The notes under the pieces were generated by a model. The model saw only the letters and a program-made list of their open reading frames with translations. It ran no database searches and was not told the origin of the DNA. The translations under genes were made by a program, and so were the position numbers. From positions 1 to 54,846 of the forward strand of contig CAYFUG010000006.1 in the NCBI GenBank assembly GCA_964346295.1: DNA of 54,846 bases, given 5' to 3'. Source of the stretch: an uncultured Bdellovibrionales bacterium (GTDB lineage: Bacteria; Patescibacteriota; Minisyncoccia; Moranbacterales; DUUL01). Below, piece after piece: positions 2 through 54,846 of this stretch; positions within the stretch are counted from its first letter, which is position 1, and every line of letters begins with the position of its first letter.

Positions 2-55
2 TTTAAATGATTTACCGACTAGGACTTGGGTTAGATTTTGGATGATTTACTTCGC
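2..55. repeat. Left copy of a perfect 54-bp terminal inverted repeat of the window (partner 54793..54846)
   Basis: I reverse-complemented 2..55 by hand. It equals 54793..54846 base for base. Identity ends at the next inward base (56 A versus 54792 C). Confidence 0.9.
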
Positions 56-1291: not shown

Positions 1292-1341
1292 GAACTTCCA
1301 AAATTGGCGAATTTCGTTGTTGCACTCAAAAATGAAAGCCC
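1292..1341 (+). repeat. Short copy of intergenic repeat family A (left end GAACTTCCAAAATTGGCGAATTTCGTTGTTGC joined directly to right end CACTCAAAAATGAAAGCCC)
   Basis: Both halves align by eye with the two ends of the longer element at 36941..37062. It lies immediately after the stop codon of the preceding gene. Confidence 0.6.
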
Positions 1342-1431
1342 TGGGATTTGGTGTAAGTTTGGTCAAAGCTTCTGAAAAGTATTGGGTTTATTAGGATTCG
1401 ATTGAGGTTTAAATTGGTCTTAATTTAGAGG

Positions 1432-17600: not shown

Positions 17601-18450
17601 CACCATCCAATTTCCCGATGATGACGACACCCTCTGGTGTAGAACCCCCGGAACCATCACCCCCACCACCACCAACCTCCGAAACTCTGCCACCCCCTTA
17701 CCGGGAACTCCCAGCGCTTCTTGCACCCAAGGCTCCGGAGCCGATAGCTACGACACTATCACCATCTCCAACCTCGACAATCTCACTCCCACCACTCACT
17801 ACGCTATCCGGCTAGAAGAAAACACCGCTCAACTGGGAACTCCCTCTACTGCCACCAACGGCATCATCAATCTCTACACCAATGATGGAACAGAAAATGT
17901 AGAATCCAAAATGATCGATGTCTACATTCTTAACCCCAATACCATCCAAGTCACCGGAAGAGTAGAACCTACTATTACTTTCAACATTGCCAACGATCAA
18001 GTAGGCTTTGGACCAATCACCGCTAGCAATATTCGTTACGCTAACCCTACTCAAACTGGCTCTGACGCTCTCACCACCGCTACCACCCTTACTCTCTCCA
18101 CCAACGCCGATGACGGAGCTATCATAGAAATTAAAGATCTTAATAACGGCCTTCATAACCCTGCTGCCAGTACTACTCTTACCAGTCAAGCTAGTACTAA
18201 CCTTACGGCCGGAACCGAAGGCTTTTCTATCCATGGCCAAAATCCCACTAGCCTCATCATCGCTGAAGGTTTTGACCATGACTCTACCGCTGACCAAGCC
18301 ATCACCACCACCTACCAATCTCTAGCAGAATCTACCGGACCAGTAGAATCCGCTCAAGTAGAACTAGTCTGTCAAACCGCTATCTCTGGCCTTACTCCTG
18401 CCGGAGACTACCAAGACACCCTAACCTTGTTAGCAACCGGAAGGTTTTAG
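14608..18450 (+). CDS. Large secreted Gly-rich / Thr-rich cell-surface protein (1280 aa)
   Basis: Signal peptide (KVTLALFVTGAGFVLSPDKIQA), two Gly-rich modules (GYGPGGGSYA.GRGGGAGYGGNGG...), a long T/S/P/N-rich region and a C-terminal beta-rich domain ending AGDYQDTLTLLATGRF. Confidence 0.85.
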   Translation: MKTKTFYTTFTKVTLALFVTGAGFVLSPDKIQAAFLCDSGSLSTTCYVSSVQTLADTETISGSGNLIIQNGGELTTAYNSTNHHYDSFVIDISGDLTVQDGGKITGNVDITADNVTIEGDGGNGGGRIDVSYKGYKEGGTRGNGYGPGGGSYAKGRGGGAGYGGNGGNTYYGGAGTSYGILSEPNDLGSGGGASANGSGGSGGGMIKLVVGGTLNLEGSILADGENGNISGGRGSGGGSGGSIWINAGEIQGNGMMSADGGSGGDTGNNYAGGGGAGGRIAIYFNNDNSSLTKKVYSGVNEGYQYGGSGTIYEKDKSQLYGDLIIDNNGNSGAITPITSDISINNYSQGENTQVDIENGVTFTFYGTNLVIPYGATLNNYATFNAASLSNVEINGIFNLKGAYSSNWGNVTINNGGILTHGANTDTKQYFIDLTMDNLIINTGGQINVSEKGYAGGGSQKDGYGPGGGSYAMGRGGGAGYGGNGGDGRYGRGGSSYGVLSEPNDLGSGGGGSHYRSGGTGGGMIKLVVGGTLNLEGSILANGNNGIYYNSRGSGGGSGGSVWIDTGTLQGNGTISVNGGMGGETSGGGGSGGRLRLGAVTNNFTGTYTVDGGTGYQNGEQGTIYGMMSRVTSIADQSAIFDELNLTGDTGSLLGTPNKVEILITDTTNNTYWNGSSWVSTEPADWPDVSGTFSWSYNGITQSNMTNGHTYNIKTKMTDEHTTEQPTSGVTFSYTNGIKDYRPENGITQVDLPTDTGQVSFPNYIHTTIWDSDQYTDLSTSLTNNDGTTIIDGTTVANGFQLLTGATPSGFQATQFQQATGAPSSYLTFFDQNQNHSLQITANTRLYSADTFNGAYIPARDLGTIQVNGINTSAAFRAGQAGQSLLFSAPAKITLNSINGIPYYSTDSSTWNQINQCADGSSTTPPSTLSFPSACYIQTDQTYIWTYHLTDFGVVANSSFLGAADYLSSTMELQTSGTTHEIHFQTAEGLTGGSANNTLTIQFPDDDDTLWCRTPGTITPTTTNLRNSATPLPGTPSASCTQGSGADSYDTITISNLDNLTPTTHYAIRLEENTAQLGTPSTATNGIINLYTNDGTENVESKMIDVYILNPNTIQVTGRVEPTITFNIANDQVGFGPITASNIRYANPTQTGSDALTTATTLTLSTNADDGAIIEIKDLNNGLHNPAASTTLTSQASTNLTAGTEGFSIHGQNPTSLIIAEGFDHDSTADQAITTTYQSLAESTGPVESAQVELVCQTAISGLTPAGDYQDTLTLLATGRF
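15037..15400 (+). repeat. Intragenic duplication, module 1 of the Gly-rich surface protein
   Basis: Aligns with 15991..16357 at an offset of 954 nt (318 codons). Several 24-31-nt blocks are identical, for example GGTTATGGTCCAGGTGGGGGTAGCTACGCTA and GGAGGAATGATTAAGTTGGTCGTTGGAGG. Confidence 0.85.
15991..16357 (+). repeat. Intragenic duplication, module 2 of the Gly-rich surface protein
   Basis: See 15037..15400. Confidence 0.85.
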
Positions 18451-33636: not shown

Positions 33637-36600
33637 ATGAATAAAGAAGACTTAAAAGAGGCTGGCCAATCTCCTGGTTCATCGGGAGTGCGAGGGGAAG
33701 TTGGTCAAAGACAGGCAGCTCAAGCTCAAGCACAGGCAGAGGCTAGTTCTCAGGTGAAGCCTCAATCTCAGATTTCAACAGCCTCCTTGGGAAATGATAA
33801 AAGTAATGGTGATTTGAGTGATGATTCCCAAGATTCCTGGGCTTCTTTTCGATCGGATTCAGAAGGAGAAGAGGAACGATTAGCCGAAGAAGAGCGACTC
33901 AGAGATTTAAAATCTTTACGGAAGGACAATTTTAATGTTGGCAATGATGCTCGCTTGCATCGAACTCTAAAAAAATCTCATCGTAAATCAGAAGAAGAAA
34001 GGGCTTCGCAGTTAGCCAAGCGCATGAAGCTTCCTTACTTAGATCTGAATATCTTTCCGGTGGATCAAGAGAATGTCACAATCATTCCCAAAGAGAAGGC
34101 TCAAAAGTTAAAGCTGGCAATAATCTTTAAAAAAGGGAAAAAGGTTAAAGTAGCCTTGTCGGATCCTGAGGACCCAGCAGCTCGAAGCTTTTTGGAGGAT
34201 TTTCAAAGCCAGCACGGTTATGATTTAGAAGCGTATGTAGTGTCCTATTCTTCTTTAGAGAGGGCCTGGGAGGGTTATGATAAGATTAAGTTGATTGATA
34301 AATTTGATTATCTGAGAATGGGGTTGAGCGGAGAGGATTTGGCAGAGTTCGAGAAAAATCTGAAAGGGCTAGTAGATCTGGAGAAGCGAATTAGTGAAAT
34401 TCCTACCACCGAAGTTTTCAATATGATAACCGCGGGAGCAATGAAGCTGGATGCTTCTGATATCCATTTTGAACCTCAAAAAAACGAGAAGGTTCGGTTG
34501 CGATATCGAATTGATGGAGTATTACAAGATGTAGCGGAATTTCCTATTAATACCTATTCTTCCATTGTTTCTCGAGTGAAGGTATTGGCCAAGATGATGC
34601 TCAATGTGCACGATGCCGCCCAGGATGGTCGTTTTTCGATAAGACTGGATGATAATGAGGATATGGGAGTGCGAGTTTCTATCATTCCCGGGAGCTTCGG
34701 AGAAAGTATTGTAATGCGTCTTCTTAGTCAAAAAATGGATGATTTAGAGTTAAGTAAGTTAGGTCTCCAAGGCATCAATCATGAGTGGCTAATGGACCAA
34801 ACAGAGAAGAAGCAAGGACTGATTATCAATTCTGGTCCTACCGGAAGCGGAAAAACCACCACTTTATATTCTATTATTAAACATCTCAATACTCCGGATC
34901 GAAAAATTATCAGCATCGAGGATCCGGTGGAGTATCAGATTCCAGGAGTAAGTCAAACTCAGGTTAACGAAGAGGAGGGCTACACTTTTCAAGAAGGGTT
35001 AAGAGCGGTGGTGCGCCAAGACCCCGATGTAATTCTAGTAGGGGAAATTAGAGACGAAGAAACCGCTGAGACTGCTATTCATTCTGCTCTTACGGGACAT
35101 TTAGTGCTTTCCACTATTCATGCTAACAGCGCCGCTGGAGTAGTAGGGAGAATCTTAGACCTAGGTGTGAAGCCTTCCTTGATTGGACCGGCGGCTAACG
35201 TATTTATTGCCCAGCGACTTTTGCGGAGATTGTGCCCTCACTGTAAAGAAAAGTATGAGCCAGCGCAGGAGACGGTAGAGGTAATAAAAAAGATGCTTTC
35301 TTTGGTTTCTCCTCATTCCAAGGTAGAGGTTCCTAAAGATATTGAGGCCCTTTGGCGTCCCAAAGGCTGCACTAAATGTCGCGGCTTAGGCTATAAAGGC
35401 CGAGTAGGAATTTTTGAGATTCTCAAAGTGGATAGTGACATTAAGGAGTTGATTGAAAATTTATCTTCAGAAGATGAAATTAGAAATGTTGCCCTGGAAA
35501 AAGGAATGATTACTTTAGAGCAAGATGGAATGCTAAAGTCAATCGCAGGAGAAACCAGTCTCGAGGAGCTGCAACGAGTAGCCGGGAAGGGAGATTATTT
35601 GATCGAGATTTATAATAAATTGATGGTCCAATCCTTGGCGGGTGGGATCTTATTAGAAGAAAAATACTTTAATAACCTAGAAAAAGTCATTAAGAATCGT
35701 CCTTTGATGTCCAAGGTGCTTAGTAAACTTAAATCCACGGGGATGTTAAAAGGCATTATGACCGGAGGAGTGCTGATGAAGGCGGGGGATATTCATATTG
35801 AGCCAGGAGATGGGGAGTTTAAGGTTCGTTATCGAGTAGATGGAGTATTGCACGATATTGTTTCTTTACCGATGGGGGACTTTCTGAGTCTAGTAAACGA
35901 AATCAAGTCTCTTGCGGGCTTTAAGACTGAGTCTCGGGAAGGAGTGATAGATGGCCGTTTCCGCTTGATCCTTCCTGACAGTCTTCATCAGAAAGTCGGG
36001 GAAAAAATCGACATTCGCCTCTCTATTATCTTAGGAGGATTTGGAGATATTATTGTAATGCGGCTCTTGAGAAGTGATTCCTTGAAGCCTAAATTAGAAA
36101 GCTTAGAAATCAATACTCTTAGCTTAGAGCGCATTAAGAGAAACATCGTTCGTCCTAATGGTATCGTAATTAACACCGGTCCTACCGGAAGCGGAAAAAC
36201 TACAACTTTGTATTCTATTCTGGGCCATCTTAATCGTCCGGAGCTGAAAATTATCACTGTGGAAGATCCGATTGAGTATCAAATGGATGGTATTATTCAA
36301 ACTCAGGTTAACGACAAAGAGGGATATACTTTTGCCACCGCGATGCGTTCTCTATTGCGTCAAAATCCCGACATTATGATGATTGGAGAGATTCGAGATG
36401 AGGAAACAGCCCAAATTGCTTATCAGGCAGCTTTGACCGGTCACTTAGTGCTCTCTACTTTGCACACCAATAGTGCGGCGGGTTCTTTTCAGCGCCTTCT
36501 GAATATGAATATGAACATCTCCGATCTTTCTAGCGGCACCAATTGTTTTATGGCGCAACGGTTGATTCGGAAAATTTGTCCTCATTGTAAGCAAAAGCTT

Positions 36601-36936
36601 CCCTTGAAGGGAGAAGACAAGGAACTATTGGAGCAGGTGGTTAATTCTATTTCGCCTAAAGCCAATCTAAATCTAGAGATTCCAAAGGAGATTTACTACC
36701 CGGGTGGTTGTGATAAGTGCTATAATTTGGGTTACGAAGGTCGGGTGCCAGTAGTAGAAGTATTGGAAGTGGGAGAGGCGATGGAGAAGATACTCTCGGG
36801 AATGCCGACTACTAGAGAGATTGAGGACAAGGCAGTGGAGTCGGGAATGTTAACTATGACCCAAGATGGAATCCTAAAAGTGATTGAGGGAGTTACTGCG
36901 CTGGAGGAGGTGTCTCGTATTAGCCGCGAGTTTTAG
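33637..36936 (+). CDS. Tandem-fused double PilB/GspE-family secretion ATPase (two complete ATPase units in one 1099-aa polypeptide)
   Basis: Unit 1 (about nt 33637-35590): disordered N-terminus, T2SSE_N-like segment, Walker A GPTGSGKTT, Asp box SIEDPVEYQ, Walker B DPDVILVGEIRDEETA, His box LTGHLVLSTIHAN, and tetra-Cys CPHC...CTKC. Unit 2 (about nt 35590-36936): GDIHIEP..., GPTGSGKTT, TVEDPIEYQ, NPDIMMIGEIRDEETA, LTGHLVLSTLHTN, and CPHC...CDKC. Confidence 0.9.
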   Translation: MNKEDLKEAGQSPGSSGVRGEVGQRQAAQAQAQAEASSQVKPQSQISTASLGNDKSNGDLSDDSQDSWASFRSDSEGEEERLAEEERLRDLKSLRKDNFNVGNDARLHRTLKKSHRKSEEERASQLAKRMKLPYLDLNIFPVDQENVTIIPKEKAQKLKLAIIFKKGKKVKVALSDPEDPAARSFLEDFQSQHGYDLEAYVVSYSSLERAWEGYDKIKLIDKFDYLRMGLSGEDLAEFEKNLKGLVDLEKRISEIPTTEVFNMITAGAMKLDASDIHFEPQKNEKVRLRYRIDGVLQDVAEFPINTYSSIVSRVKVLAKMMLNVHDAAQDGRFSIRLDDNEDMGVRVSIIPGSFGESIVMRLLSQKMDDLELSKLGLQGINHEWLMDQTEKKQGLIINSGPTGSGKTTTLYSIIKHLNTPDRKIISIEDPVEYQIPGVSQTQVNEEEGYTFQEGLRAVVRQDPDVILVGEIRDEETAETAIHSALTGHLVLSTIHANSAAGVVGRILDLGVKPSLIGPAANVFIAQRLLRRLCPHCKEKYEPAQETVEVIKKMLSLVSPHSKVEVPKDIEALWRPKGCTKCRGLGYKGRVGIFEILKVDSDIKELIENLSSEDEIRNVALEKGMITLEQDGMLKSIAGETSLEELQRVAGKGDYLIEIYNKLMVQSLAGGILLEEKYFNNLEKVIKNRPLMSKVLSKLKSTGMLKGIMTGGVLMKAGDIHIEPGDGEFKVRYRVDGVLHDIVSLPMGDFLSLVNEIKSLAGFKTESREGVIDGRFRLILPDSLHQKVGEKIDIRLSIILGGFGDIIVMRLLRSDSLKPKLESLEINTLSLERIKRNIVRPNGIVINTGPTGSGKTTTLYSILGHLNRPELKIITVEDPIEYQMDGIIQTQVNDKEGYTFATAMRSLLRQNPDIMMIGEIRDEETAQIAYQAALTGHLVLSTLHTNSAAGSFQRLLNMNMNISDLSSGTNCFMAQRLIRKICPHCKQKLPLKGEDKELLEQVVNSISPKANLNLEIPKEIYYPGGCDKCYNLGYEGRVPVVEVLEVGEAMEKILSGMPTTREIEDKAVESGMLTMTQDGILKVIEGVTALEEVSRISREF

Positions 36937-36940
36937 AGGG

Positions 36941-37062
36941 GGACTTTCAAATTTGGTGAATCTCGTTGTTGCCGCCTGCGTTTTGACCTCACCGTACCTC
37001 TCTCAGTACGGCTCAGCCAAAGCCTCGGCGTCGCCTAGAGCTTCACTCAAATTTGAAAGTCC
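36941..37062. repeat. Long copy of intergenic repeat family A
   Basis: 15-bp perfect terminal inverted repeats GGACTTTCAAATTTG / CAAATTTGAAAGTCC enclose 92 nt with an inner hairpin CCGTAC-ctctctca-GTACGG. Starts 5 nt after the stop of the double ATPase gene and is followed by TTTT. Confidence 0.75.
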
Positions 37063-37206
37063 TAGGTTTTGCTGTTACAAGTTGTAGTTTATTGTTAAAG
37101 TTTCCGTGCCTCATTCACTGTACTTCTAGTACTAGTACAGCTCATTTCGGTGCTCAACTTTTCCCTCGCCTTTGCGTAGCCGCTACGGCGGAGCAAGTTA
37201 GAACTG

Positions 37207-37253
37207 CACTCAAATTTGAAAGCCCTAAATTATGAGGATAGTTTCGTTGTTGC
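37207..37253. repeat. Further family A fragments: right-end motif CACTCAAATTTGAAAGCCC followed by left-internal motif TTTCGTTGTTGC
   Basis: By-eye matches to 37045..37062 / 36961..36972 and to 1312..1341. Confidence 0.55.
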
Positions 37254-37431: not shown

Positions 37432-38286
37432 ATGAGAGGAAAAACGATCGAAATTTTAACCAAAGCAATGAAGGGGGGATACGCTGTAGGGGCCTTCAAC
37501 ACCACCAATTTGGAGTTTACTCAGGGGATTGTGCGAGCAGCGAATGAGCTGGAGCGAGATTGTGTGATTCAAATTACCCCTAAAACGATGCGTTATGGCT
37601 GTGCTCCGGTGATGCTAAAAATGATTGAGGCAGTGGTCGAGCGAGAGGGAAATTCTTGTTCCATCGGATTACACTTGGATCATGGCAAGAGCTTTGATGA
37701 TGTGGTGGAAGCGATTGAGGCCGGAGTGGATTCGGTGATGATTGATGCTTCTCGAATGGAATTCAAGGACAATATGGACACTACCAAGCGAGTGGTGGAC
37801 TATGCTCACGAGAAGGGAGTAACTGTTCAGGCAGAGTTAGGGAATGTGCCCTACTTGGGGCAAGAAGAACAGGAAATCAACTGGGAAGAAGTGATGACTA
37901 ACCCCCAACAGGCAGCAGAATTAGTAGAAAAAACTGGCATCGACGCTTTAGCGGTAGGGATTGGTAATGCTCACGGATTTTTTCGGGAGCGAGAGGAGCC
38001 AGACTGGGAGAGGCTGGCTAAAATTCGAGAGCTACTGCCAGATTTGCCTTTGATTATGCATGGGTCTTCCAGCTGGAAGGAGGAGAATGTTAAGAAGGCA
38101 ATTGAGGGAGGAGTTTGCTGCTTTAATATTGACACTGATGTCCGGGTAGCCGCCATGACGGAGGTTTGCAATATCTTGGGAGATCGTTGTGAGGTTAGCG
38201 ATCCGCGGAAAGTTTTTGGTCCCATGCGAGAAGAAATTAGCAAAAAAGTTAAGGAAAAAATCAAAATGTTTGCCAGAAAAAACTAG
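37432..38286 (+). CDS. fba: Class II fructose-bisphosphate aldolase
   Basis: 284 aa with AFNTTNLE, zinc ligand block LHLDHG, IGNAHG and MHGSSS motifs. Confidence 0.88.
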   Translation: MRGKTIEILTKAMKGGYAVGAFNTTNLEFTQGIVRAANELERDCVIQITPKTMRYGCAPVMLKMIEAVVEREGNSCSIGLHLDHGKSFDDVVEAIEAGVDSVMIDASRMEFKDNMDTTKRVVDYAHEKGVTVQAELGNVPYLGQEEQEINWEEVMTNPQQAAELVEKTGIDALAVGIGNAHGFFREREEPDWERLAKIRELLPDLPLIMHGSSSWKEENVKKAIEGGVCCFNIDTDVRVAAMTEVCNILGDRCEVSDPRKVFGPMREEISKKVKEKIKMFARKN

Positions 38287-38321
38287 ATAGTGTATAATCA
38301 ATTCATAATATTGTTTTTTCA

Positions 38322-40425
38322 AATACCAAAACTTAACCAAAAATCAAAACCAATGAAACCACGGACCCTCAAAAAGTCTCTCCGGTGGACTTTGATGAGC
38401 TTAGCTTGTCTTAGTTTACTGGTGACCTACCAACCCTTAGCGGCCCAAGAAGAAGAGCAGCCTCCTCAGCCTCAAATTCAAGCTATTGACGCTGTCTTAG
38501 TCCAACCGCCAGGACAAGTCAATCAAGCAGTTCATCTAACGGCAGAAGCTCAAAACTACTCTCAAACAGGCCTTACGGCTGGAGTAGCCATTTTCCAAAA
38601 CCAAGGAGAAACCAGGCAACTAAAAGACCGGATGACTCTGGATGGACCAGTCTACCTGCCCAAGGAAGAGGCAATTGTAGTTGAAATTCCTTACAGTCCC
38701 GCTCCTTACTTAAACGGAGAATTTGAGGTGGTAGCCTTTCTAGAGACTCCCGGAGGAGATCAAGTAGCATTCAAGAGTTTGGGAGAAATGAATTTCCAGG
38801 GAACTCAACCTTTTGCTCAAATTAAAAGCGAAGAATGTTCTCTAACAGCAGGAGACAATCAATTTTCTCCAGGTCAAGTAGCTCAAACAACTGATTCTCT
38901 TAGTATCTCTTGCCCGGTTCAAAATCAATCCAGCGAGACTCTAACGCTTACTCCTAGCTTTCAAGACCAGCCGCAAGCTGATCAAGAATTTACCCTTAGT
39001 CCCAATCAACAAAAAACAGTTACTTTAGAAGTTCCGGTTCCATCCGATCCGGGTCTTTATCAATCTAAATTAGAACTGCTTAGTCAAAGCCAAGAAGCTT
39101 CCAATGAGGTCCTTTTCAGTTATCACAAAACCGGCAATAGCGCTTTGATTTGGCAAGTTTCTTCTGACGATCAAGGTCAAGTTTTTGTTAATTGGTCTTC
39201 TGCTAAGAGCACTTATCGATTAGACACCAGCCTCACTGAAGAAGAAGCTCCCAAGTTCACTCTAACCGCCAAGGCTTGTGGTAAAGAAGCTACTCAAGAA
39301 GATCCCGCTCTGGGACTGGAGAGGATGAAAATTTCTCCCGAACCTCTCAAGCTTGCTACTAGCTGCAACAATCCAACTTTAAGCCTGACAGTAGAAGATG
39401 ATCAAGGAGAAACTGTTCTAGAAGAAACCTATCCCCTTTATCAAAAACAAGCTGATCAAGCCGCCGGTGATCCAATGCTGGATGCTTCCTTAGAAGGAGA
39501 AGAAGAGGGGTCTTTCAATTGGCTACTAGCAATCGGAGGGGGAATTGCTCTAATTATCATAATTGTAATTCTCATCAAAATCATGAAAGACCGAAAACCC
39601 CCGATGGTAACTCCCGGATCTAGCAACGGCTCCAAACTCTCTGCCTTACTCTTCGCTTTCCTTTTAGCGGGAGGATTGCTAATGAGTGGAGGAGTAGAGG
39701 CAAGAGATGATGGTTTCAGTGGCTACATGAACGACTTTGTTAATCCAGATGGTACGCTTAATTGTCCCCCTGGTAGATTTTGTGAGCTTACGGGTCCCAG
39801 CTCTACTGATAATGTAAAATGCGTCTCCTTGGAATATCATGACGAATATCCCTACAGAGTCCAGTACGATGATTGCAGAGTGTACGATGTTTGTCGGTTC
39901 TGTGGAAGCGGAGATTCCGAAACTGTCTTGAGATCAGAGTGTGCGGGAACTTACATTTGCCATAAAGATGGTCAAGTCACAGCCACCACTGGGCAGGCCT
40001 CGGTTATTAATAGTGGACCAGGTTTTGTCAAGGTTAATTTTAAGAGTGGTATGCTAACTAGGTATTCTGGATTAGGAACTTGCACCGGGAGAGAGTGTAC
40101 ACCGCCCTTAATTTTTGCCAAGGATAGCTGTGACAAAACCTTCACCTTTAGTTACGAGGCGCCCAACCAAGCTCCTTCTGCTTCCATCACCTCTCCTTCT
40201 AGCGGCACTAGCGCTACTACCGGTGAGACTGTTTCCCTTTCCGGGAGCGGCTCCGATCCGGACGGAGATTCTTTGAGCTACACTTGGTATCAATCCTCCA
40301 GCTGCAGCGGAACTGCTATTGGATCTGGCAGGACTGCCAGCACCTCCTTTACAACTGCCGGAACCAAGTATGTTTCTCTTCGGGTCAGTGATGGCAAGGG
40401 AGGAACGGATTGTGCTAGTGTGAGC
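38322..40425 (+). repeat. Tandem direct repeat, copy 1 (2104 bp)
   Basis: Identical to 40910..43013 at every position I compared (offset 2588 bp). The encoded 691 aa and two antisense-frame translations are also identical. It includes 31 nt of 5' leader. Confidence 0.9.
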
Positions 40426-40887
40426 GTGGAGGTGGGTGAAGTAGCAGGAGAATGTGGTCCTTCCGGGAATCCGGGGAGGAATTTCACTAGCGTTAATCAA
40501 TGGGCTTCTCAACTTAGCGATGCTTGCGCTGGCGGTAGTCCTACGAATGTTAAGATGACGGTAGGAGCGAGTGGCGATGCCCAATTAACTTGGAGTTGCT
40601 CTGGAGGGGGGGGTAGTACAGTGACAACTCCAACTCCAACTCCAACTCCAACTCCAACTCCAACGGTAACTTGTCCAGCTGGAACATTTAATATTAATGG
40701 AGCTTGCATTCCCTGTAGTCAGTTAACAAGGAGCCAGTGCCAGGAGGCAAGTGCTCAAGGGAGGCTGGATGATGGTAAGTGGACTACTTGCTTTTATATG
40801 ACTTGTGACCCAGGGGACGATTACGACAACTGGGCATGCCTTGAAAGGCCTACCACGAGTGCTGTTATTGATTGTCATGCCAATTAG
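38353..40887 (+). CDS. Surface protein paralog A (844 aa): signal peptide, extracellular domain, TM hairpin, Cys-rich region, PKD-like domain, TP linker, CPAGTF-type Cys-rich tip
   Basis: I chose the start at ATG 38353 (MKPRTLKKSLRWTLMSLACLSLLVTYQPLAAQ is a signal peptide). TM segments WLLAIGGGIALIIIIVILIKIM and LSALLFAFLLAGGLLMSGG. PKD-like block SGSGSDPDGDSLSYTW...YVSLRVSDGKGG. Unique 153-aa C-terminus. Confidence 0.85.
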   Translation: MKPRTLKKSLRWTLMSLACLSLLVTYQPLAAQEEEQPPQPQIQAIDAVLVQPPGQVNQAVHLTAEAQNYSQTGLTAGVAIFQNQGETRQLKDRMTLDGPVYLPKEEAIVVEIPYSPAPYLNGEFEVVAFLETPGGDQVAFKSLGEMNFQGTQPFAQIKSEECSLTAGDNQFSPGQVAQTTDSLSISCPVQNQSSETLTLTPSFQDQPQADQEFTLSPNQQKTVTLEVPVPSDPGLYQSKLELLSQSQEASNEVLFSYHKTGNSALIWQVSSDDQGQVFVNWSSAKSTYRLDTSLTEEEAPKFTLTAKACGKEATQEDPALGLERMKISPEPLKLATSCNNPTLSLTVEDDQGETVLEETYPLYQKQADQAAGDPMLDASLEGEEEGSFNWLLAIGGGIALIIIIVILIKIMKDRKPPMVTPGSSNGSKLSALLFAFLLAGGLLMSGGVEARDDGFSGYMNDFVNPDGTLNCPPGRFCELTGPSSTDNVKCVSLEYHDEYPYRVQYDDCRVYDVCRFCGSGDSETVLRSECAGTYICHKDGQVTATTGQASVINSGPGFVKVNFKSGMLTRYSGLGTCTGRECTPPLIFAKDSCDKTFTFSYEAPNQAPSASITSPSSGTSATTGETVSLSGSGSDPDGDSLSYTWYQSSSCSGTAIGSGRTASTSFTTAGTKYVSLRVSDGKGGTDCASVSVEVGEVAGECGPSGNPGRNFTSVNQWASQLSDACAGGSPTNVKMTVGASGDAQLTWSCSGGGGSTVTTPTPTPTPTPTPTVTCPAGTFNINGACIPCSQLTRSQCQEASAQGRLDDGKWTTCFYMTCDPGDDYDNWACLERPTTSAVIDCHAN
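40627..40662 (+). repeat. Hexanucleotide microsatellite (ACTCCA)x6 encoding (TP)6 in the paralog A tip
   Basis: Six perfect tandem units counted directly. Confidence 0.95.
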
Positions 40888-40909
40888 TTAAAATCAATAA
40901 TCAAGTGTC

Positions 40910-43013
40910 AATACCAAAACTTAACCAAAAATCAAAACCAATGAAACCACGGACCCTCAAAAAGTCTCTCCGGTGGACTTTGATGAGCTTAGCTTGTCTT
41001 AGTTTACTGGTGACCTACCAACCCTTAGCGGCCCAAGAAGAAGAGCAGCCTCCTCAGCCTCAAATTCAAGCTATTGACGCTGTCTTAGTCCAACCGCCAG
41101 GACAAGTCAATCAAGCAGTTCATCTAACGGCAGAAGCTCAAAACTACTCTCAAACAGGCCTTACGGCTGGAGTAGCCATTTTCCAAAACCAAGGAGAAAC
41201 CAGGCAACTAAAAGACCGGATGACTCTGGATGGACCAGTCTACCTGCCCAAGGAAGAGGCAATTGTAGTTGAAATTCCTTACAGTCCCGCTCCTTACTTA
41301 AACGGAGAATTTGAGGTGGTAGCCTTTCTAGAGACTCCCGGAGGAGATCAAGTAGCATTCAAGAGTTTGGGAGAAATGAATTTCCAGGGAACTCAACCTT
41401 TTGCTCAAATTAAAAGCGAAGAATGTTCTCTAACAGCAGGAGACAATCAATTTTCTCCAGGTCAAGTAGCTCAAACAACTGATTCTCTTAGTATCTCTTG
41501 CCCGGTTCAAAATCAATCCAGCGAGACTCTAACGCTTACTCCTAGCTTTCAAGACCAGCCGCAAGCTGATCAAGAATTTACCCTTAGTCCCAATCAACAA
41601 AAAACAGTTACTTTAGAAGTTCCGGTTCCATCCGATCCGGGTCTTTATCAATCTAAATTAGAACTGCTTAGTCAAAGCCAAGAAGCTTCCAATGAGGTCC
41701 TTTTCAGTTATCACAAAACCGGCAATAGCGCTTTGATTTGGCAAGTTTCTTCTGACGATCAAGGTCAAGTTTTTGTTAATTGGTCTTCTGCTAAGAGCAC
41801 TTATCGATTAGACACCAGCCTCACTGAAGAAGAAGCTCCCAAGTTCACTCTAACCGCCAAGGCTTGTGGTAAAGAAGCTACTCAAGAAGATCCCGCTCTG
41901 GGACTGGAGAGGATGAAAATTTCTCCCGAACCTCTCAAGCTTGCTACTAGCTGCAACAATCCAACTTTAAGCCTGACAGTAGAAGATGATCAAGGAGAAA
42001 CTGTTCTAGAAGAAACCTATCCCCTTTATCAAAAACAAGCTGATCAAGCCGCCGGTGATCCAATGCTGGATGCTTCCTTAGAAGGAGAAGAAGAGGGGTC
42101 TTTCAATTGGCTACTAGCAATCGGAGGGGGAATTGCTCTAATTATCATAATTGTAATTCTCATCAAAATCATGAAAGACCGAAAACCCCCGATGGTAACT
42201 CCCGGATCTAGCAACGGCTCCAAACTCTCTGCCTTACTCTTCGCTTTCCTTTTAGCGGGAGGATTGCTAATGAGTGGAGGAGTAGAGGCAAGAGATGATG
42301 GTTTCAGTGGCTACATGAACGACTTTGTTAATCCAGATGGTACGCTTAATTGTCCCCCTGGTAGATTTTGTGAGCTTACGGGTCCCAGCTCTACTGATAA
42401 TGTAAAATGCGTCTCCTTGGAATATCATGACGAATATCCCTACAGAGTCCAGTACGATGATTGCAGAGTGTACGATGTTTGTCGGTTCTGTGGAAGCGGA
42501 GATTCCGAAACTGTCTTGAGATCAGAGTGTGCGGGAACTTACATTTGCCATAAAGATGGTCAAGTCACAGCCACCACTGGGCAGGCCTCGGTTATTAATA
42601 GTGGACCAGGTTTTGTCAAGGTTAATTTTAAGAGTGGTATGCTAACTAGGTATTCTGGATTAGGAACTTGCACCGGGAGAGAGTGTACACCGCCCTTAAT
42701 TTTTGCCAAGGATAGCTGTGACAAAACCTTCACCTTTAGTTACGAGGCGCCCAACCAAGCTCCTTCTGCTTCCATCACCTCTCCTTCTAGCGGCACTAGC
42801 GCTACTACCGGTGAGACTGTTTCCCTTTCCGGGAGCGGCTCCGATCCGGACGGAGATTCTTTGAGCTACACTTGGTATCAATCCTCCAGCTGCAGCGGAA
42901 CTGCTATTGGATCTGGCAGGACTGCCAGCACCTCCTTTACAACTGCCGGAACCAAGTATGTTTCTCTTCGGGTCAGTGATGGCAAGGGAGGAACGGATTG
43001 TGCTAGTGTGAGC
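40910..43013 (+). repeat. Tandem direct repeat, copy 2 (2104 bp)
   Basis: See 38322..40425. Confidence 0.9.
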
Positions 43014-43679
43014 CTGAGTGTGACAGCCGGAGGTACTGGAGGGACTTGTACCGCTACCATTAACCATCCAATTCTGGGTCCTGGTGGCAGCGGAGGAACT
43101 CCCGTAGGCGGTGGTAGTGTGGTAATTGATGGTGAAAATAACGGAGGAAATATCAGCTTAAATTTAGATGCTACTCCGGATAATGTTAGTTCCCCTGGAG
43201 ACGCTTCTATGGAGTCTACTTTATCGATTAGCGACCCTTCGGTCACGGCTATTTTAGGGCTAGGAGTGACTAATTATGATCTGATCTGCGATAACGGTGG
43301 CCAACAATACGCCCTAGCAGAACAAACTGGCTCGGAAACGCAGCCTTGCGGATATTCAGTAGGAGGGGGTAATGTAATGCAAACTTTTACTCCTCAATCT
43401 ACTCTTACCATTCCAACAGGGACCTATCAAGTGACTTTGCCAGGAGGACAGCCGTATACTGCTCAGTATCAGGCTAAATTTGTTATCCAGGCTAATGAGA
43501 GTATTTTAGCTACTCAATCGGGAGTTTGTGGAAATGGTATTCTGGATAGTGGAGAAGAGTGCGATGACGGGCCTCTTAATGGTACTTGTGCCCAGGGTAG
43601 AACTTGTAGCTCTAATTGCACTGAAAATAATTGCACCGACTTTGAGCAAGGGGGTTCTTATTATGAAGTGAACCCTTAG
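40941..43679 (+). CDS. Surface protein paralog B (912 aa): same 691-aa body as paralog A, with a different 221-aa tip ending in a Myxococcus-type cysteine-rich repeat
   Basis: Start at ATG 40941, equivalent to 38353. The unique C-terminus contains CGNGILDSGEECDDGPLNGTC...C...C. Confidence 0.85.
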   Translation: MKPRTLKKSLRWTLMSLACLSLLVTYQPLAAQEEEQPPQPQIQAIDAVLVQPPGQVNQAVHLTAEAQNYSQTGLTAGVAIFQNQGETRQLKDRMTLDGPVYLPKEEAIVVEIPYSPAPYLNGEFEVVAFLETPGGDQVAFKSLGEMNFQGTQPFAQIKSEECSLTAGDNQFSPGQVAQTTDSLSISCPVQNQSSETLTLTPSFQDQPQADQEFTLSPNQQKTVTLEVPVPSDPGLYQSKLELLSQSQEASNEVLFSYHKTGNSALIWQVSSDDQGQVFVNWSSAKSTYRLDTSLTEEEAPKFTLTAKACGKEATQEDPALGLERMKISPEPLKLATSCNNPTLSLTVEDDQGETVLEETYPLYQKQADQAAGDPMLDASLEGEEEGSFNWLLAIGGGIALIIIIVILIKIMKDRKPPMVTPGSSNGSKLSALLFAFLLAGGLLMSGGVEARDDGFSGYMNDFVNPDGTLNCPPGRFCELTGPSSTDNVKCVSLEYHDEYPYRVQYDDCRVYDVCRFCGSGDSETVLRSECAGTYICHKDGQVTATTGQASVINSGPGFVKVNFKSGMLTRYSGLGTCTGRECTPPLIFAKDSCDKTFTFSYEAPNQAPSASITSPSSGTSATTGETVSLSGSGSDPDGDSLSYTWYQSSSCSGTAIGSGRTASTSFTTAGTKYVSLRVSDGKGGTDCASVSLSVTAGGTGGTCTATINHPILGPGGSGGTPVGGGSVVIDGENNGGNISLNLDATPDNVSSPGDASMESTLSISDPSVTAILGLGVTNYDLICDNGGQQYALAEQTGSETQPCGYSVGGGNVMQTFTPQSTLTIPTGTYQVTLPGGQPYTAQYQAKFVIQANESILATQSGVCGNGILDSGEECDDGPLNGTCAQGRTCSSNCTENNCTDFEQGGSYYEVNP

Positions 43680-43773
43680 TAGCTGGGTTGTGTGTGGTCA
43701 GTCTTCTGAGAATCTCTGAGTTTCTCGATCAATCTAGTTAACGCATCGAGTAGCTTAAGATTAGTTGGAAAAC

Positions 43774-43808
43774 AAAAAACAGTGGGGGCATTTCCTCGCT
43801 GTTTTTTT
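43774..43808. terminator. Bidirectional-type intrinsic terminator candidate after paralog B
   Basis: AAAAAACAGTGGG-loop-CCTCGCTGTTTTTTT: about 9 bp of stem including G-T pairs, flanked by an A-run and a T-run. Confidence 0.55.
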
Positions 43809-43898
43809 AATCTCTAAAAACTTCACAATATTATACATATTAGTTATAGTTAAATCAGTTAGAAATTCCTCCAGTTTTTAGAGGGCTCGCCTCCAGCT

Positions 43899-43928
43899 TC
43901 CCCCTTTATAAAAGAGGTTAGGGGGATT
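43899..43928 (-). repeat. Short intergenic copy of repeat family B (AATCCCCCTAACC ... TTTATAAAGGGGGA on the minus strand)
   Basis: The reverse complement shares AATCCCCCTAACC and CTTT.ATAA.GGGGA with the two in-frame copies inside fpg (46416, 46743). Confidence 0.6.
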
Positions 43929-44056
43929 GAGCAAATCAAGAAAAATGTGACTATTTAGAATGAATTAACTATAAACAAAGGAGCATAAAAAATAAAAACA
44001 AGGATTTTTTAGCAAAAAAATAGGAAGAGAAAGGTGGGTGATTGGAAAGTGAAAGG

Positions 44057-44085
44057 TTGCGTTGGGTGGGATAAGGGGGTAAAAT
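44057..44085 (+). promoter_or_regulatory. Promoter candidate: TTGCGT, 17-nt spacer, TAAAAT, with a G-rich spacer
   Basis: GGTTGCGTTGGGTGGGATAAGGGGGTAAAAT. It sits 380 nt upstream of pyrG and directly upstream of the nested palindrome 44147..44311. Confidence 0.35.
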
Positions 44086-44146
44086 AACTAGGAATAATAA
44101 TTAATCTCCTGGGGATAGCGAATAGCTTGCTATTTAGAAGTTTGAC

Positions 44147-44311
44147 AAAAAAGGCATTGCTAACAAAGTATAGCTCTAAGGTACTCGATCTGTCATCCTG
44201 AGCGAATTCAAGGGATTTTGTATCATTTTTCAGCTAAGATTCCTCCATTTCGCTTTGCTTCAGTCGGAATGACAACGGTTGTGTATTTTTAGTTAGCAAT
44301 ACCCTTTTTTT
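44147..44311 (+). repeat. Nested palindromic element (outer arms AAAAAAGGCATTGCTAAC / GTTAGCAATACCCTTTTTTT; inner arms TGTCATCCTGAGCG / GTCGGAATGACA); possible small RNA
   Basis: Both inverted-repeat pairs were read directly. The outer 3' arm ends in a T7 run, so the element has terminator-like geometry. The inner arm belongs to repeat family C. Confidence 0.6.
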
Positions 44312-44464
44312 GTGCTTTGAGAGGGGAGGTCCAGTTTGTTGTTTTTAGGGATAATCACTTATTGGATTTGAGAAATTTTAAGGGAATTAGAATTGTGAGT
44401 CCGGAAGATTTTTTTAGACAGATTGAAATTACTAGTTAGCTTTTAATCCAATTTTAAATTAGCT

Positions 44465-46127: not shown

Positions 46128-47351
46128 ATGCCAGAATTGCCAGAAGTAGAAACAGTAGTGGGGGATTTAAATCGGAGAGTGGCCGGTTGTTATATCAGTG
46201 GCTTTTGGAGTGATTGGGAGAAGGCTTTGAGATCAGAAACAGGATCGGAAACGAGTGCCCAGTATTTTAATCAGAAGTTGGCAGGTGACCGGATTAAAAA
46301 GTTTACCCGACGGGGGAAGAATATTTTGATGCGCTTGGAAAGTGGGCGAGTGGTGTGGATTCACCTCAAAATGACGGGACATTTGTTAGTTAAGACTCGG
46401 AGTCAAAAAAATAAGGAAATCCCGCTAGCCCCCCTGCTTTGCCGGCAGGCAGGCTTTCATAAAGAGGGAACTGGCAAGGAGGATGAAGCTGGAGGCGCCG
46501 ATCAGTATCAAGGAGAAGCTAAAAAAGAGCTCGGAGCTACCTGCCTTCGCCAAGGCTTCGTCGAGGCGAGGGCAAGCACCGACCAGCCTAAAAAAAAGAA
46601 AAAGGGGGAGGTAGCAGGGGGTTATTTTGCAGAAAGAGTGAACCAGTATATTCATCATATTTGGTATTTGAGCGAGATGGTGCAGTCGTTAAAGAGGCAA
46701 GATGAGGTCGGCGGAGTTGAGAATACTGACCAGCAGGAGGTCGAAATCCCCCTAACCCCCCTGCCTTGCCGGCAGGCAGGCTTTCATAAGGGGAGGGCTG
46801 ATAAGGATGCTCCCAAGGATTTTGATTTAACGCTGGAATTTTCGGATCTGCGGAAATTTGGTAAAATCAGATTGTTTGAAAATTATGCTCAAGCAGAAAA
46901 GGAAGTACTGGCGGCGTTAGGGGAGGAGCCATTGTCAAAAGAATTCACTTTTGCTAAATTTAAGGAGATTCTAAAACAAAGCAGGCGGCGCAATTTGCGG
47001 GCCTTGCTTCTAGATCAGTTTCAGATTGTGGGAATCGGTAATATTTATGCCAGTGAAATTCTGTTTGAAGCTGGGGTGAGCCCTTATCGAGCAGTGGGAA
47101 GTCTCCAAGAACAAGAGGCTCGAGCGGTATTTGATTGGACCAAGAAAATTTTGCGTTTGGCAATAAAAGAACGAGGAACCTCCGATAGCGATTATCGGGA
47201 TACGCAGGGAGCACCGGGGAATTATCAAAATTTACTAAAAGTGTATGGCAAAGAAGGCCAGCCTTGTCCGCGGAAGGGTTGCCCAGGAGAGATTCGGCGA
47301 GATAAGATTGGTCAAAGGAGTGCGTTTTGGTGTGAGGGGTGTCAAGGCTAG
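46128..47351 (+). CDS. mutM: Formamidopyrimidine-DNA glycosylase (Fpg/MutM) carrying in-frame repeat-derived insertions
   Basis: N-terminal catalytic MPELPEVE, HLKMTGH, FSDLRKFG, the H2TH block QFQIVGIGNIYASEILFEAGVSPYR, and the C-terminal zinc finger CPRKGCPGEI...FWCEGCQ. At 407 aa it is clearly longer than canonical Fpg proteins. Confidence 0.85.
   Translation: MPELPEVETVVGDLNRRVAGCYISGFWSDWEKALRSETGSETSAQYFNQKLAGDRIKKFTRRGKNILMRLESGRVVWIHLKMTGHLLVKTRSQKNKEIPLAPLLCRQAGFHKEGTGKEDEAGGADQYQGEAKKELGATCLRQGFVEARASTDQPKKKKKGEVAGGYFAERVNQYIHHIWYLSEMVQSLKRQDEVGGVENTDQQEVEIPLTPLPCRQAGFHKGRADKDAPKDFDLTLEFSDLRKFGKIRLFENYAQAEKEVLAALGEEPLSKEFTFAKFKEILKQSRRRNLRALLLDQFQIVGIGNIYASEILFEAGVSPYRAVGSLQEQEARAVFDWTKKILRLAIKERGTSDSDYRDTQGAPGNYQNLLKVYGKEGQPCPRKGCPGEIRRDKIGQRSAFWCEGCQG
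46416..46468 (+). repeat. Repeat family B, in-frame copy 1 inside fpg (encodes EIPLAPLLCRQAGFHKEG)
   Basis: About 47 of 53 nt are identical to 46743..46795. Contains the near-palindrome CTGCTTTGCCGGCAGGCAGG. Confidence 0.8.
46743..46795 (+). repeat. Repeat family B, in-frame copy 2 inside fpg (encodes EIPLTPLPCRQAGFHKGR)
   Basis: See 46416..46468. Confidence 0.8.
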
Positions 47352-54792: not shown

Positions 54793-54846
54793 GCGAAGTA
54801 AATCATCCAAAATCTAACCCAAGTCCTAGTCGGTAAATCATTTAAA
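54793..54846. repeat. Right copy of the 54-bp terminal inverted repeat (partner 2..55)
   Basis: See 2..55. Confidence 0.9.

What the first reader, a model, noticed from the sequence alone, without database searches (positions are those of the whole stretch)
38322..43679. Perfect 2.1-kb tandem duplication yields two surface-protein genes with identical 691-aa bodies and unrelated Cys-rich C-terminal tips
Seen: 38322..40425 and 40910..43013 (offset 2588 bp) matched at every position I compared. The match includes 31 nt of 5' leader, the start codon and 691 codons. Identity ends abruptly after ...GGTDCASVS, at the end of a PKD-like domain (SGSGSDPDGDSLSYTW...VSLRVSDGKGG). Tip A (153 aa) has a (TP)6 linker and a CPAGTFNINGACIPC-type Cys-rich module. 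Tip B (221 aa) ends in CGNGILDSGEECDDGPLNGTC..., the pattern of the Myxococcus-type cysteine-rich repeat. The shared body has a signal peptide, a large extracellular domain, a TM hairpin and a second Cys-rich ectodomain. A -10 box (TATAAT, 38293..38298) precedes only copy A. Inference: zero divergence over 2.1 kb in a streamlined genome implies very recent duplication or continuing gene conversion. Unequal or intramolecular recombination between the copies would delete or amplify exactly 2588 bp and change which tip or tips are displayed. That would be a cassette-like adhesin or host-specificity switch not dependent on an invertase or a DGR.
Basis: partly seen in the sequence, partly recalled or inferred. 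Interest (0 to 1): 0.7.

Follow-up and report, generated by a model that had tools for sequence, protein, structure and literature searches.

The report
Tandem twin surface-protein genes, different tails
Two neighbouring genes in an uncultured ultra-small bacterium share a letter-for-letter identical 2.1-kb front part but end in unrelated cysteine-rich tails; this is most likely an ordinary recent duplication, or copy-correction between neighbours, of an orphan surface protein, and nothing shows a purpose-built switch.

Summary
Window 38322-40425 and 40910-43013 are identical over 2104 nt, with razor-sharp edges. This gives gene A (38353-40887, 844 aa) and gene B (40941-43679, 912 aa). They share 691 residues and end in unrelated tails of 153 and 221 aa.

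The window is a metagenome contig (JGI 3300012002) from a Moranbacteria-like Patescibacterium. The shared body has a signal peptide, an all-beta ectodomain, two membrane helices, a 13-Cys ectodomain and one PKD domain. Apart from the PKD domain it has no detectable relatives. Tail B has one relative (76% aa) on a short contig from another metagenome. Tail A has none.

- "Zero divergence" is weak evidence. The contig ends suggest a k=55 de Bruijn assembly, which prints both copies from one collapsed edge.
- Gene B also has a promoter-like site (TTGTCA-18-AATAAT).
- Recombination between the direct copies can only delete or amplify gene A. Tail B always stays, so this is not a reversible switch.

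No recombinase, reverse transcriptase, silent cassette, toxin or immunity gene is present. Verdict: probably real tandem paralogues, a known kind of event in a new orphan family. The switching idea is untested. Interest is modest.

The parts
38270..38298 (+). Promoter-like site before gene A (TTGCCA-17-TATAAT, 11 of 12). It overlaps the end of the aldolase gene.
   Evidence: sequence. This is a consensus match only, and the site count in the region is not above the shuffled expectation.
38322..40425 (+). Repeat copy 1 (R): 31-nt leader plus codons 1-691 of gene A.
   Evidence: 2104 nt, 100% identical to copy 2.
38353..40887 (+). Gene A, 844 aa. Layout: signal peptide, all-beta ectodomain 1, TM helix, about 20-aa basic loop, TM or signal-like helix, 13-Cys ectodomain 2 with a PKD domain, then tail A.
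   Evidence: The start at M1 is favoured by the A/T-rich, Shine-Dalgarno-free leader typical of this genome. IMG called M15.
39514..39696 (+). The two hydrophobic helices (aa 388-413 and 427-448) and the basic loop KIMKDRKPPMVTPGSSNGSK. The second helix, which ends ...GGVEA|RDD and follows an in-frame Met, looks like an internal signal peptide. The same feature in gene B lies at 42102-42284.
   Evidence: Hydropathy; AF2 helices; sequence. The gene-fusion or cleavage reading is inference.
40165..40434 (+). PKD domain of gene A (aa 605-694). It runs 3 residues past the end of the repeat. In gene B it lies at 42753-43022.
   Evidence: PF00801, PF18911, PF22352 and PF17963 are all above their gathering scores.
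40426..40884 (+). Tail A, 153 aa with 11 Cys: a Cys module, a (TP)6 linker and a CPAGTFNINGACIPC... module. It has no detectable relatives.
40625..40664 (+). Perfect ACTCCA hexanucleotide run that encodes the TP linker of tail A.
   Evidence: family D2; sequence.
40872..40901 (+). Promoter-like site before gene B (TTGTCA-18-AATAAT, 10 of 12). It spans the stop codon of gene A.
   Evidence: sequence.
40888..40909 (+). The 22-nt unique junction between the stop codon of gene A and repeat copy 2. This is the only sequence that proves a head-to-tail arrangement.
40910..43013 (+). Repeat copy 2 (R).
40941..43679 (+). Gene B, 912 aa: the same body followed by tail B.
43014..43676 (+). Tail B, 221 aa with 9 Cys. 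Its end, CGNGILDSGEECDDGPLNGTC..., resembles the acidic Cys-rich repeat but scores below threshold. It is 76% identical over 161 aa to a partial gene on contig L002 from another metagenome.
44311..44436 (+). Relic of the C-terminus of a PIN toxin gene, inside the 785-nt gene-free stretch after gene B. In L002 an intact CorA / Phd / PIN set follows the tail-B gene.
   Evidence: 45% over 42 aa, E 7e-10.

Best explanation
**What it is.** These are two real, adjacent, co-oriented paralogous genes in a Moranbacteria-like Patescibacterium. They encode an orphan family of membrane-anchored, cysteine-rich, PKD-containing cell-surface or secreted proteins.

**Origin (inferred).** The 2.1-kb shared part is identical or nearly identical for one of two reasons:
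- the promoter-proximal 2104 nt were copied very recently; or
- the two neighbours are kept alike by RecA-type gene conversion that runs out exactly where their homology ends.

Gene B, with tail B, is probably the resident gene of this locus, because a relative has tail B in the same downstream context. Gene A is probably the newer copy, which carries a different 484-nt 3' end of unknown origin.

**How it works (inferred).**
- Both genes are complete and in frame. Each has a promoter-like site, so the cell probably makes both proteins at once. They have the same body and two different disulfide-rich C-terminal binding modules.
- Homologous recombination between the copies will occur as a by-product. 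It can only remove or amplify the gene-A unit of 2588 nt.
- There is no dedicated switching machinery.

**Shown:** the repeat, the reading frames, the domain layout, the lack of relatives and the taxonomic placement.
**Inferred:** the origin, expression, surface location and recombination behaviour.
For: - **Repeat and frames.** The repeat is perfect with sharp edges, and both ORFs are intact.
- **Head-to-tail arrangement.** The 22-nt junction 40888-40909 links tail A to the start of the second copy.
  - In an assembly graph, an edge that leaves R and re-enters R can only come from a tandem array or a circle. Two strain alleles cannot produce it (inference).
- **Expression.** Both genes have promoter-like sites just outside the repeat.
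- **Surface protein.**
  - A signal peptide, two TM helices and otherwise all-beta content.
  - A PKD domain above the Pfam cut-offs.
  - Cysteine parity: the shared ectodomain 2 has 13 Cys, tail A adds 11 and tail B adds 9. Both totals are therefore even, and each tail has a Cys 10-12 residues past the breakpoint. This fits folded, disulfide-bonded products in both cases.
- **Tail B is the resident tail.** The L002 partial gene is 76% identical. It is followed by a 37-nt stretch that is 89% identical to window 43770-43806, and by a PIN gene whose relic lies at window 44311-44436.
- **Composition.** GC and GC3 of both tails resemble the body and its neighbours, so there is no sign of recent foreign DNA.
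- **No switching machinery.** The window holds no recombinase, invertase, reverse transcriptase or extra cassette.
- **Rarity.** 1.36 Mb from 81 related loci contain no intra-locus repeat of at least 200 nt at 85% identity or more.
- **Precedent.** Large, strain-variable, Cys-rich extracellular proteins with weak Myxococcus-repeat similarity are already described in CPR genomes (PMC4736985).
Against: - **One contig, no reads.** Everything rests on a single short-read metagenome contig.
  - The copy number could be above 2.
  - The exactness of the identity is unverified.
  - The population may be heterogeneous.
- **Origin is not a simple duplication.**
  - A simple tandem duplication would give identical 3' ends as well, so at least one further event is needed (tail replacement or acquisition).
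  - Gene conversion between old paralogues should leave decayed homology beyond the tract. None is detectable.
- **No evolutionary support for the body.** No homologue of it was found. The one exhaustive search listed only its top 150 hits, and these were swamped by PKD proteins, so weak relatives could be hidden.
- **No structure.** The structure predictions were unusable, with pLDDT 42 and 35.
- **Promoters.** The promoter-like matches are no more frequent than in shuffled sequence.
Confidence: 0.6

Rival explanations
1. Assembly construct. The two-copy tandem, or its perfect identity, is produced by the short-read de Bruijn assembler rather than by the genome. One possibility is that the loop edge (tail A plus junction) comes from a minority variant, a chimeric join or an excised circle. 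Another is that the real copies differ at sparse sites that were collapsed. A third is that the real copy number is not two.
For: - The contig ends are exact inverted copies over 54 nt. This indicates a graph with k of about 55, in which a 2104-nt repeat must be a single edge printed twice.
- The population was assembled in only one sample. The protein cluster holds just the JGI and NCBI versions of this one contig.
- The one relative's contig (L002) breaks off inside tail B.
Against: - The junction 40888-40909, running into the first base of R, exists in the contig. Two alleles that differ only in the tail would form a bubble that rejoins downstream, not a loop back to the start of R (inference from graph logic).
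- Both ORFs are intact and in frame, and gene B has its own promoter-like site exactly at the junction. A random chimera would be unlikely to give this.
Confidence: 0.15
2. One reading: a selected, recombination-driven cassette system. Unequal or intramolecular crossing-over between the identical bodies changes which tails are displayed. This would tune host attachment of an episymbiont without an invertase or a DGR.
For: - 2.1 kb of perfect direct homology is an excellent RecA substrate (established knowledge of tandem-duplication instability).
- recR and dprA are in the window.
- The identity ends at a module boundary, in frame.
- CPR surface proteins are known to vary between strains (PMC4736985).
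- The repeat is exceptional for this clade.
Against: - Direct-repeat recombination only deletes or amplifies gene A. Tail B is never lost, and the deletion is irreversible, so this is dosage or loss variation rather than a switch.
- There are only two units and no silent cassettes in the window.
- Both genes have promoter-like sites.
- No relatives carry the same body with alternative tails in any collection searched.
- No population data are available.
Confidence: 0.12
3. A polymorphic-toxin-like or effector locus: a conserved delivery body with exchangeable C-terminal effector domains, as in CdiA-CT, Rhs or MafB loci with orphan modules.
For: The body is conserved and the C-termini become unrelated after a sharp demarcation point. 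Both proteins are predicted to be exported.
Against: - Neither tail matches a toxin or enzyme domain in Pfam or NCBIfam, even at E up to 10.
- No small immunity ORF follows either gene. There are 53 nt between A and B, and no ORF longer than 40 aa in the 785 nt after B apart from a PIN relic.
- The tails are Cys-rich and predicted to be all-beta. This is typical of binding modules, not of cytoplasm-acting toxins.
- The whole body is duplicated, rather than a short homology stub.
Confidence: 0.04

Closest known systems
Unstable tandem gene duplications or amplifications, and concerted evolution of tandem paralogues by gene conversion in bacteria (general mechanism; my own knowledge)
   Same: It has head-to-tail direct repeats of kilobase size, complete identity inside the tract, RecA-dependent loss or amplification expected, and sharp tract edges.
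   Different: A fresh tandem duplication repeats the whole unit. Here the second unit ends in an unrelated 3' module, so a second event or a pre-existing paralogue is needed. No decayed homology is visible beyond the tract.
Large strain-variable cysteine-rich extracellular proteins of CPR bacteria (Peribacteria; PMC4736985)
   Same: The host is a CPR bacterium. The products are exported and Cys-rich, with weak similarity to the Myxococcus cysteine-rich repeat. They are proposed to act in attachment, and strain variation is noted.
   Different: No sequence relationship to those proteins was shown here. The present proteins are smaller (844 and 912 aa) and have two internal membrane helices. The notable feature is a perfect tandem duplication, not allelic variation.
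Campylobacter fetus sap S-layer gene family (my own knowledge, not tested here)
   Same: Paralogues share an identical 5' block that includes the leader and the N-terminal coding region, and diverge completely in the 3' part. Recombination occurs within the shared block.
   Different: The sap system has 8-9 cassettes, a single promoter on an invertible segment and opposed orientations, and it gives reversible switching. Here there are two co-oriented complete genes, each with a promoter-like site, so only deletion or amplification is possible.
Polymorphic toxin loci (CdiA-CT/CdiI, Rhs, MafB with orphan modules)
   Same: They have a conserved body and a variable C-terminus after a sharp breakpoint, with tandem arrangement of alternatives.
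   Different: This locus has no toxin domain, no immunity gene and no conserved demarcation motif, and the full body is duplicated.
Hypervariable PTD-repeat surface protein of a Gracilibacterium (bioRxiv 10.1101/595074)
   Same: It is a CPR surface-protein gene whose repeats confound short-read assembly, and whose copy number cannot be fixed without curation.
   Different: That case is a 9-nt microsatellite array inside one gene, not a 2.1-kb gene-scale duplication.

Membership tests
Tandem segmental duplication / tandem paralogue pair | Two co-oriented adjacent copies of a long segment with high identity | tested here: met
   2104 nt, 100% identical, offset 2588, same strand.
Tandem segmental duplication / tandem paralogue pair | A head-to-tail junction present in real DNA molecules, and twofold read depth over the repeat | not testable with these tools
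   No reads are available. The junction 40888-40909 is seen only in the contig.
PKD domain proteins (Pfam PF00801 / PF18911 / PF22352) | A score above the Pfam gathering threshold | tested here: met
   In gene A: PF00801 30.0 bits against 23.5, PF18911 29.7 against 27, PF22352 31.6 against 27, at aa 605-694. All three also exceed their cut-offs in gene B (30.1, 28.9 and 29.8 bits).
Myxococcus-type cysteine-rich acidic repeat (TIGR02232) | A score above the NCBIfam cut-off (20.8 bits); the repeats usually occur in tandem | tested here: not met
   11.7 bits, E 0.17, a single copy at tail B aa 862-895 of gene B. There is no Pfam DUF4215 hit. The CGNG....GEECDDG motif is visibly present, so the resemblance is real but membership is unproven.
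Polymorphic toxin systems (CdiA/Rhs/Maf type) | A recognisable C-terminal toxin domain | tested here: not met
   Neither tail has a toxin or enzyme family hit at E up to 10.
Polymorphic toxin systems (CdiA/Rhs/Maf type) | An immunity gene immediately downstream of each toxin tip | tested here: not met
   The gap after gene A is 53 nt. After gene B there are only ORFs of 40 aa or less, one of them a PIN relic.
Cassette-type surface variation (sap, pilE/pilS, vls-like) | Several promoterless or silent cassettes plus one expression site | tested here: not met
   There are only two units, both complete ORFs with promoter-like sites. No further tail or body copies exist in 54.8 kb. The rest of the genome was not available.
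Invertase- or DGR-driven variation | A site-specific recombinase or reverse transcriptase nearby; inverted repeats or a TR/VR pair | tested here: not met
   No such Pfam family occurs in any ORF examined in the window. The repeats are direct, not inverted.
Patescibacteria (CPR), Moranbacteria-like lineage | Closest relatives of housekeeping genes | tested here: met
   The best pyrG matches (71-74% aa) are MAGs labelled Moraniibacteriota, Paceibacteria or Patescibacteria. Some carry evidently wrong automatic labels. No rRNA or marker-set phylogeny was done.

The most novel reading that the evidence does not exclude
The two identical bodies are kept identical by ongoing gene conversion, while interchangeable C-terminal binding modules are swapped in after the PKD domain. 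In addition, RecA-mediated loss or amplification of the 2588-nt gene-A unit creates standing cell-to-cell variation in which adhesin tails, and how many, an episymbiotic Patescibacterium displays. This would be a recombinase-free, dosage-type surface-variation locus. It would be the first described for CPR bacteria and would bear directly on host range.
Probability: 0.12. Interest if true: 0.6.

Novelty: new member of a known kind. Interest (0 to 1): 0.3.

Why it matters
How ultra-small episymbiotic bacteria recognise and hold on to their hosts is largely unknown. Exported, disulfide-rich, strain-variable proteins are the main candidates.

A verified tandem pair with one body and two different tails would give two things:
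- a concrete, testable adhesin candidate with a built-in natural domain-swap experiment;
- an example of how a streamlined genome still generates surface diversity.

As it stands, this is one unverified short-read contig. It shows a common evolutionary event (duplication plus 3' module change) in an orphan protein family. Its main value is as a flag for read-level checking and for long-read data from the same site.

Tried and rejected
**Searches for relatives**
- Exact-product look-ups of both genes with the M1 start found nothing. The IMG call of gene B (P0001) identified the source contig.
- Word-index homology searches with gene A, with body residues 1-590, and with tail A minus its TP linker found only self and one PKD protein.
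The only informative hit was P0034. In hindsight the PKD domain should have been removed, so weak relatives of the body may be hidden below the 150 rows shown.
- Metagenome-contig scans with a tail-B alignment and with the body found nothing, not even the source contig, so that collection does not contain it.
- The viral-contig scan and the plasmid blastn found nothing.
- PDB sequence searches found nothing.

**Synteny**
- Anchoring on pyrG in 80 GTDB genomes found no body or tail homologue near pyrG. The aldolase-pyrG neighbourhood is not conserved.

**Structure**
- AlphaFold2 on a single sequence gave pLDDT 42 for gene A and 35 for PKD plus tail B. These are too poor for fold searches, so none were run.

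**Other checks**
- Looked for decayed homology beyond the repeat edges: none.
- Looked for further tail or body copies in the window: none.
- Antisense ORFs in the region have no family hits.
- Literature searches for the sample id and for Patescibacteria tandem duplications found nothing.

**Rejected readings**
- Polymorphic toxin locus.
- Invertase or DGR system.
- Plasmid or phage origin.

Full report
**1. The observation**

A direct comparison shows that window 38322-40425 and 40910-43013 are identical at all 2104 positions. The match cannot be extended by a single base on either side. The repeat finder and a self-megablast give the same result.

The ORFs are gene A at 38353-40887 (844 aa) and gene B at 40941-43679 (912 aa). 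They share their first 691 residues and then diverge into tails of 153 and 221 aa.
- The two tails align only through G/T/P-rich linker segments.
- Neither tail resembles the body or anything else in the window.
- Beyond both repeat edges the DNA similarity drops straight to background. Left flank z = -0.17, right flank z = 0.91, and in-register identity is 4-12 of 30.

**2. Where it comes from**

The IMG gene call for gene B places the window on contig Ga0153774_1000216 (54,849 nt) of JGI metagenome 3300012002. An NCBI copy of 54,846 nt, which is the window, also exists.

The contig carries rpoB, rpoC, clpB, pyrG, aspS, recR, pth, dprA and similar genes, so it is chromosomal.

The closest pyrG genes among GTDB species representatives are 71-74% identical at the protein level. 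They belong to MAGs labelled Moraniibacteriota, Paceibacteria or Patescibacteria. 'Streamlined genome' is thus a fair description.

Almost no gene in the window has a Shine-Dalgarno motif, and leaders are A/T-rich. Both starts lie inside the repeat.

**3. What the proteins are**

The body, in order:
- A classical signal peptide (MKPRTLKKSLRWTLMSLACLSLLV...).
- About 365 residues predicted to be all-beta.
- An acidic stretch.
- A strong TM helix (aa 388-413) followed by KIMKDRK.
- About 20 residues that include an in-frame Met.
- A second hydrophobic helix ending GGVEA|RDD.
- A Cys-rich region with 11 Cys between aa 471 and 593.
- One PKD domain at aa 605-694, with 2 more Cys.

Further points:
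- The PKD domain is the only family match that passes a curated cut-off.
- The second helix looks like an internal signal peptide. The body may be an old fusion of an anchored protein and a secreted one. Ectodomain 2 with its tail might also be released by signal peptidase. Both ideas are inference.
- The PKD match runs 3-4 residues into each tail (VEV and LSV). The breakpoint therefore sits in the last strand of the domain, not after it.
- Shared ectodomain 2 has 13 Cys, tail A has 11 and tail B has 9. Both whole ectodomains therefore have even counts, and each tail has a Cys 10-12 residues after the breakpoint. This fits properly disulfide-bonded products in both genes.
- The end of tail B (CGNGILDSGEECDDGPLNGTC) looks like the acidic Cys-rich Myxococcus repeat. 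It scores only 11.7 bits against a 20.8-bit cut-off.
- Tail A has no family hit.
- AlphaFold2 without an alignment gave unusable models, with pLDDT 42 and 35.

**4. Relatives**

Searches that found nothing:
- Body residues 1-590 and tail A have no detectable relatives in the 5.8-billion-protein word-index search.
- The PDB sequence searches also found nothing.
- Neither metagenome scan found a relative of the body or of tail B.
- The viral-contig scan and the plasmid search found nothing either.
- The 81 related loci fetched contain no homologue.

PKD-repeat proteins dominated the exhaustive phmmer run, and only 150 rows are visible. Weak relatives cannot be excluded.

The run's one informative hit was P0034, on the 2.7-kb contig L002 from JGI sample 3300037274. 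The partial ORF there is 76% identical to tail B over 161 aa.
- It is followed by a 37-nt stretch that is 89% identical to window 43770-43806.
- After that come corA, a Phd antitoxin gene and an intact PIN toxin gene.
- The C-terminal relic of that PIN gene survives at window 44311-44436.

Tail B and its downstream context are therefore orthologous between two populations, which makes gene B the likely resident gene of this locus. The L002 contig starts inside tail B, so the body attached there is unknown.

Synteny around pyrG is not conserved, even in the nearest genomes.

**5. Is it an assembly artefact?**

I could not see reads, but two points bear on this.

(a) The two contig ends are exact inverted copies over 54 nt, window 2-55 against 54793-54846, with the first mismatch at position 56.
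- This is what a de Bruijn assembler with final k of about 55 leaves when both ends of a contig stop at the same vertex.
- In such a graph a 2104-nt repeat is a single edge. The contig prints it twice from one consensus, and sparse differences between copies would be removed as bubbles (my knowledge of these assemblers).
- 'Zero mismatches' is therefore largely guaranteed by the method and cannot by itself date the event.

(b) The 484-nt segment of tail A plus the 22-nt junction leaves the 3' end of R and re-enters its 5' end.
- Two strain alleles with different tails would rejoin downstream and form a bubble. They would not loop back.
- Only a head-to-tail array, or a circle excised from one, gives this topology.
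- The only path using all edges is U-R-tailA-R-tailB-D.

I therefore think the tandem is real in at least part of the population. The copy number and the exactness of identity remain open.

For scale, 1.36 Mb of related Patescibacteria loci contain no intra-locus repeat of at least 200 nt at 85% identity or more. Assemblies tend to break at repeats, which biases this baseline.

**6. How it arose and what it does**

A plain tandem duplication would also duplicate the 3' end, so at least one more step is needed. There are two routes:
- Gene conversion between older neighbours, with the tract ending where homology ends.
- Duplication of R plus acquisition of a new 3' module.

The complete lack of decayed homology outside the tract fits neither route neatly, and I cannot choose between them.

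Composition gives no hint of foreign origin.

Both genes have promoter-like sites just outside the repeat:
- TTGCCA-17-TATAAT at 38270-38298.
- TTGTCA-18-AATAAT at 40872-40901.

The claim that only copy A has a -10 box does not hold, although such matches are no more frequent here than in shuffled sequence. No terminator-like site separates the genes.

The most economical functional reading is co-expression of two surface or secreted proteins with the same body and different Cys-rich binding modules.

**7. The switching idea**

Recombination between co-oriented repeats gives either U-R-tailB (loss of gene A, irreversible) or arrays with extra gene-A units. It never removes tail B or exchanges the tails.

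Some such variants must arise if the repeat is real and the cell has RecA (general knowledge of tandem-duplication instability). That is a by-product, not evidence of a selected switch.

The window contains no recombinase, invertase, reverse transcriptase or additional cassette. There is no toxin domain and no immunity gene. The locus therefore fails the membership tests for cassette systems, DGRs and polymorphic toxins.

If tandem duplications are as unstable here as in model bacteria, persistence of gene A at assembly-dominant frequency suggests either a very recent origin or selection for keeping both tails (inference).

**8. Comparison and verdict**

The event is a known kind: tandem paralogues with a homogenised 5' block and divergent 3' modules. 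Analogues are the C. fetus sap family and polymorphic-toxin loci, but it differs from both in defining features.

The protein type matches what has been reported for CPR genomes: large, exported, Cys-rich, strain-variable proteins with faint Myxococcus-repeat similarity (PMC4736985). Repeat-bearing CPR surface genes are also known to mislead assemblers (bioRxiv 10.1101/595074).

I rate this a new member of a known kind, of modest interest (0.3). The more exciting reading, dosage-type adhesin variation maintained by gene conversion, is neither excluded nor supported.

Noticed in passing
window 2-55 and 54793-54846: The two ends of the contig are exact inverted copies of each other (54 nt inside the window, first mismatch at position 56). 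Both ends therefore stop at the same sequence in opposite orientation. Either an inverted repeat flanks this 54.8-kb segment, or this is an assembler end-effect at k of about 55.
   Followed up: partly
window 43680-44464, especially 44311-44436: This is a 785-nt gene-free, AT-rich (35% GC) stretch between gene B and pyrG. It holds the C-terminal relic of a PIN toxin gene, 45% identical to aa 104-145 of the intact PIN on L002. In L002, corA, a Phd antitoxin and PIN follow the tail-B gene, so a toxin-antitoxin pair and corA appear to have been deleted here.
   Followed up: partly
window 46128-47351 (repeats at 46416-46480 and 46743-46807): The fpg/mutM gene is 407 aa, about 130 aa longer than usual. 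The extra segment is bounded by two 65-nt direct repeats (85% identical), each encoding EIPL(A/T)PL(L/P)CRQAGFHK. It looks like an in-frame insertion of a repeated element in a DNA-repair gene.
   Followed up: partly
window 1315-1350, 37036-37071, 37199-37234; inverted partner 36941-36955: A 36-nt intergenic repeat (core CACTCAAATTTGAAAG(T/C)CCT) occurs three times. Two copies and an inverted partner lie in the 495-nt spacer upstream of the aldolase gene. Its function is unknown, and there is no Rfam hit in the window apart from one tRNA.
   Followed up: no
window 33637-36936: A 1099-aa type II/IV secretion (PilB-like) ATPase with two T2SSE ATPase domains fused in one ORF. The internal DNA repeat 34825-34989 / 36169-36333 is 76% identical. 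It lies two genes upstream of the duplicated surface-protein genes.
   Followed up: no
window 40625-40664: A perfect ACTCCA hexanucleotide run encodes the (TP)6 linker of tail A. It is a likely site for in-frame slippage that would change the linker length.
   Followed up: no
window 14608-18450 (repeat 15035-15395 / 15989-16348): A 1280-aa signal-peptide protein with no Pfam family and an internal 360-nt repeat at 82% identity. It is another orphan surface-type protein on the same contig.
   Followed up: no
whole window: Start codons are almost never preceded by a Shine-Dalgarno motif, and leaders are A/T-rich. This probably explains why the IMG gene caller chose an internal Met after a GGTGG for genes A and B.
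   Followed up: partly
L003, L004, L005 and others: Several of the closest MAGs by pyrG are labelled 'uncultured Bdellovibrionales' or 'Saccharibacteria' in their record titles, although they group with Moraniibacteriota/Paceibacteria genomes. These are probably mislabelled automatic taxonomy in public records.
   Followed up: no
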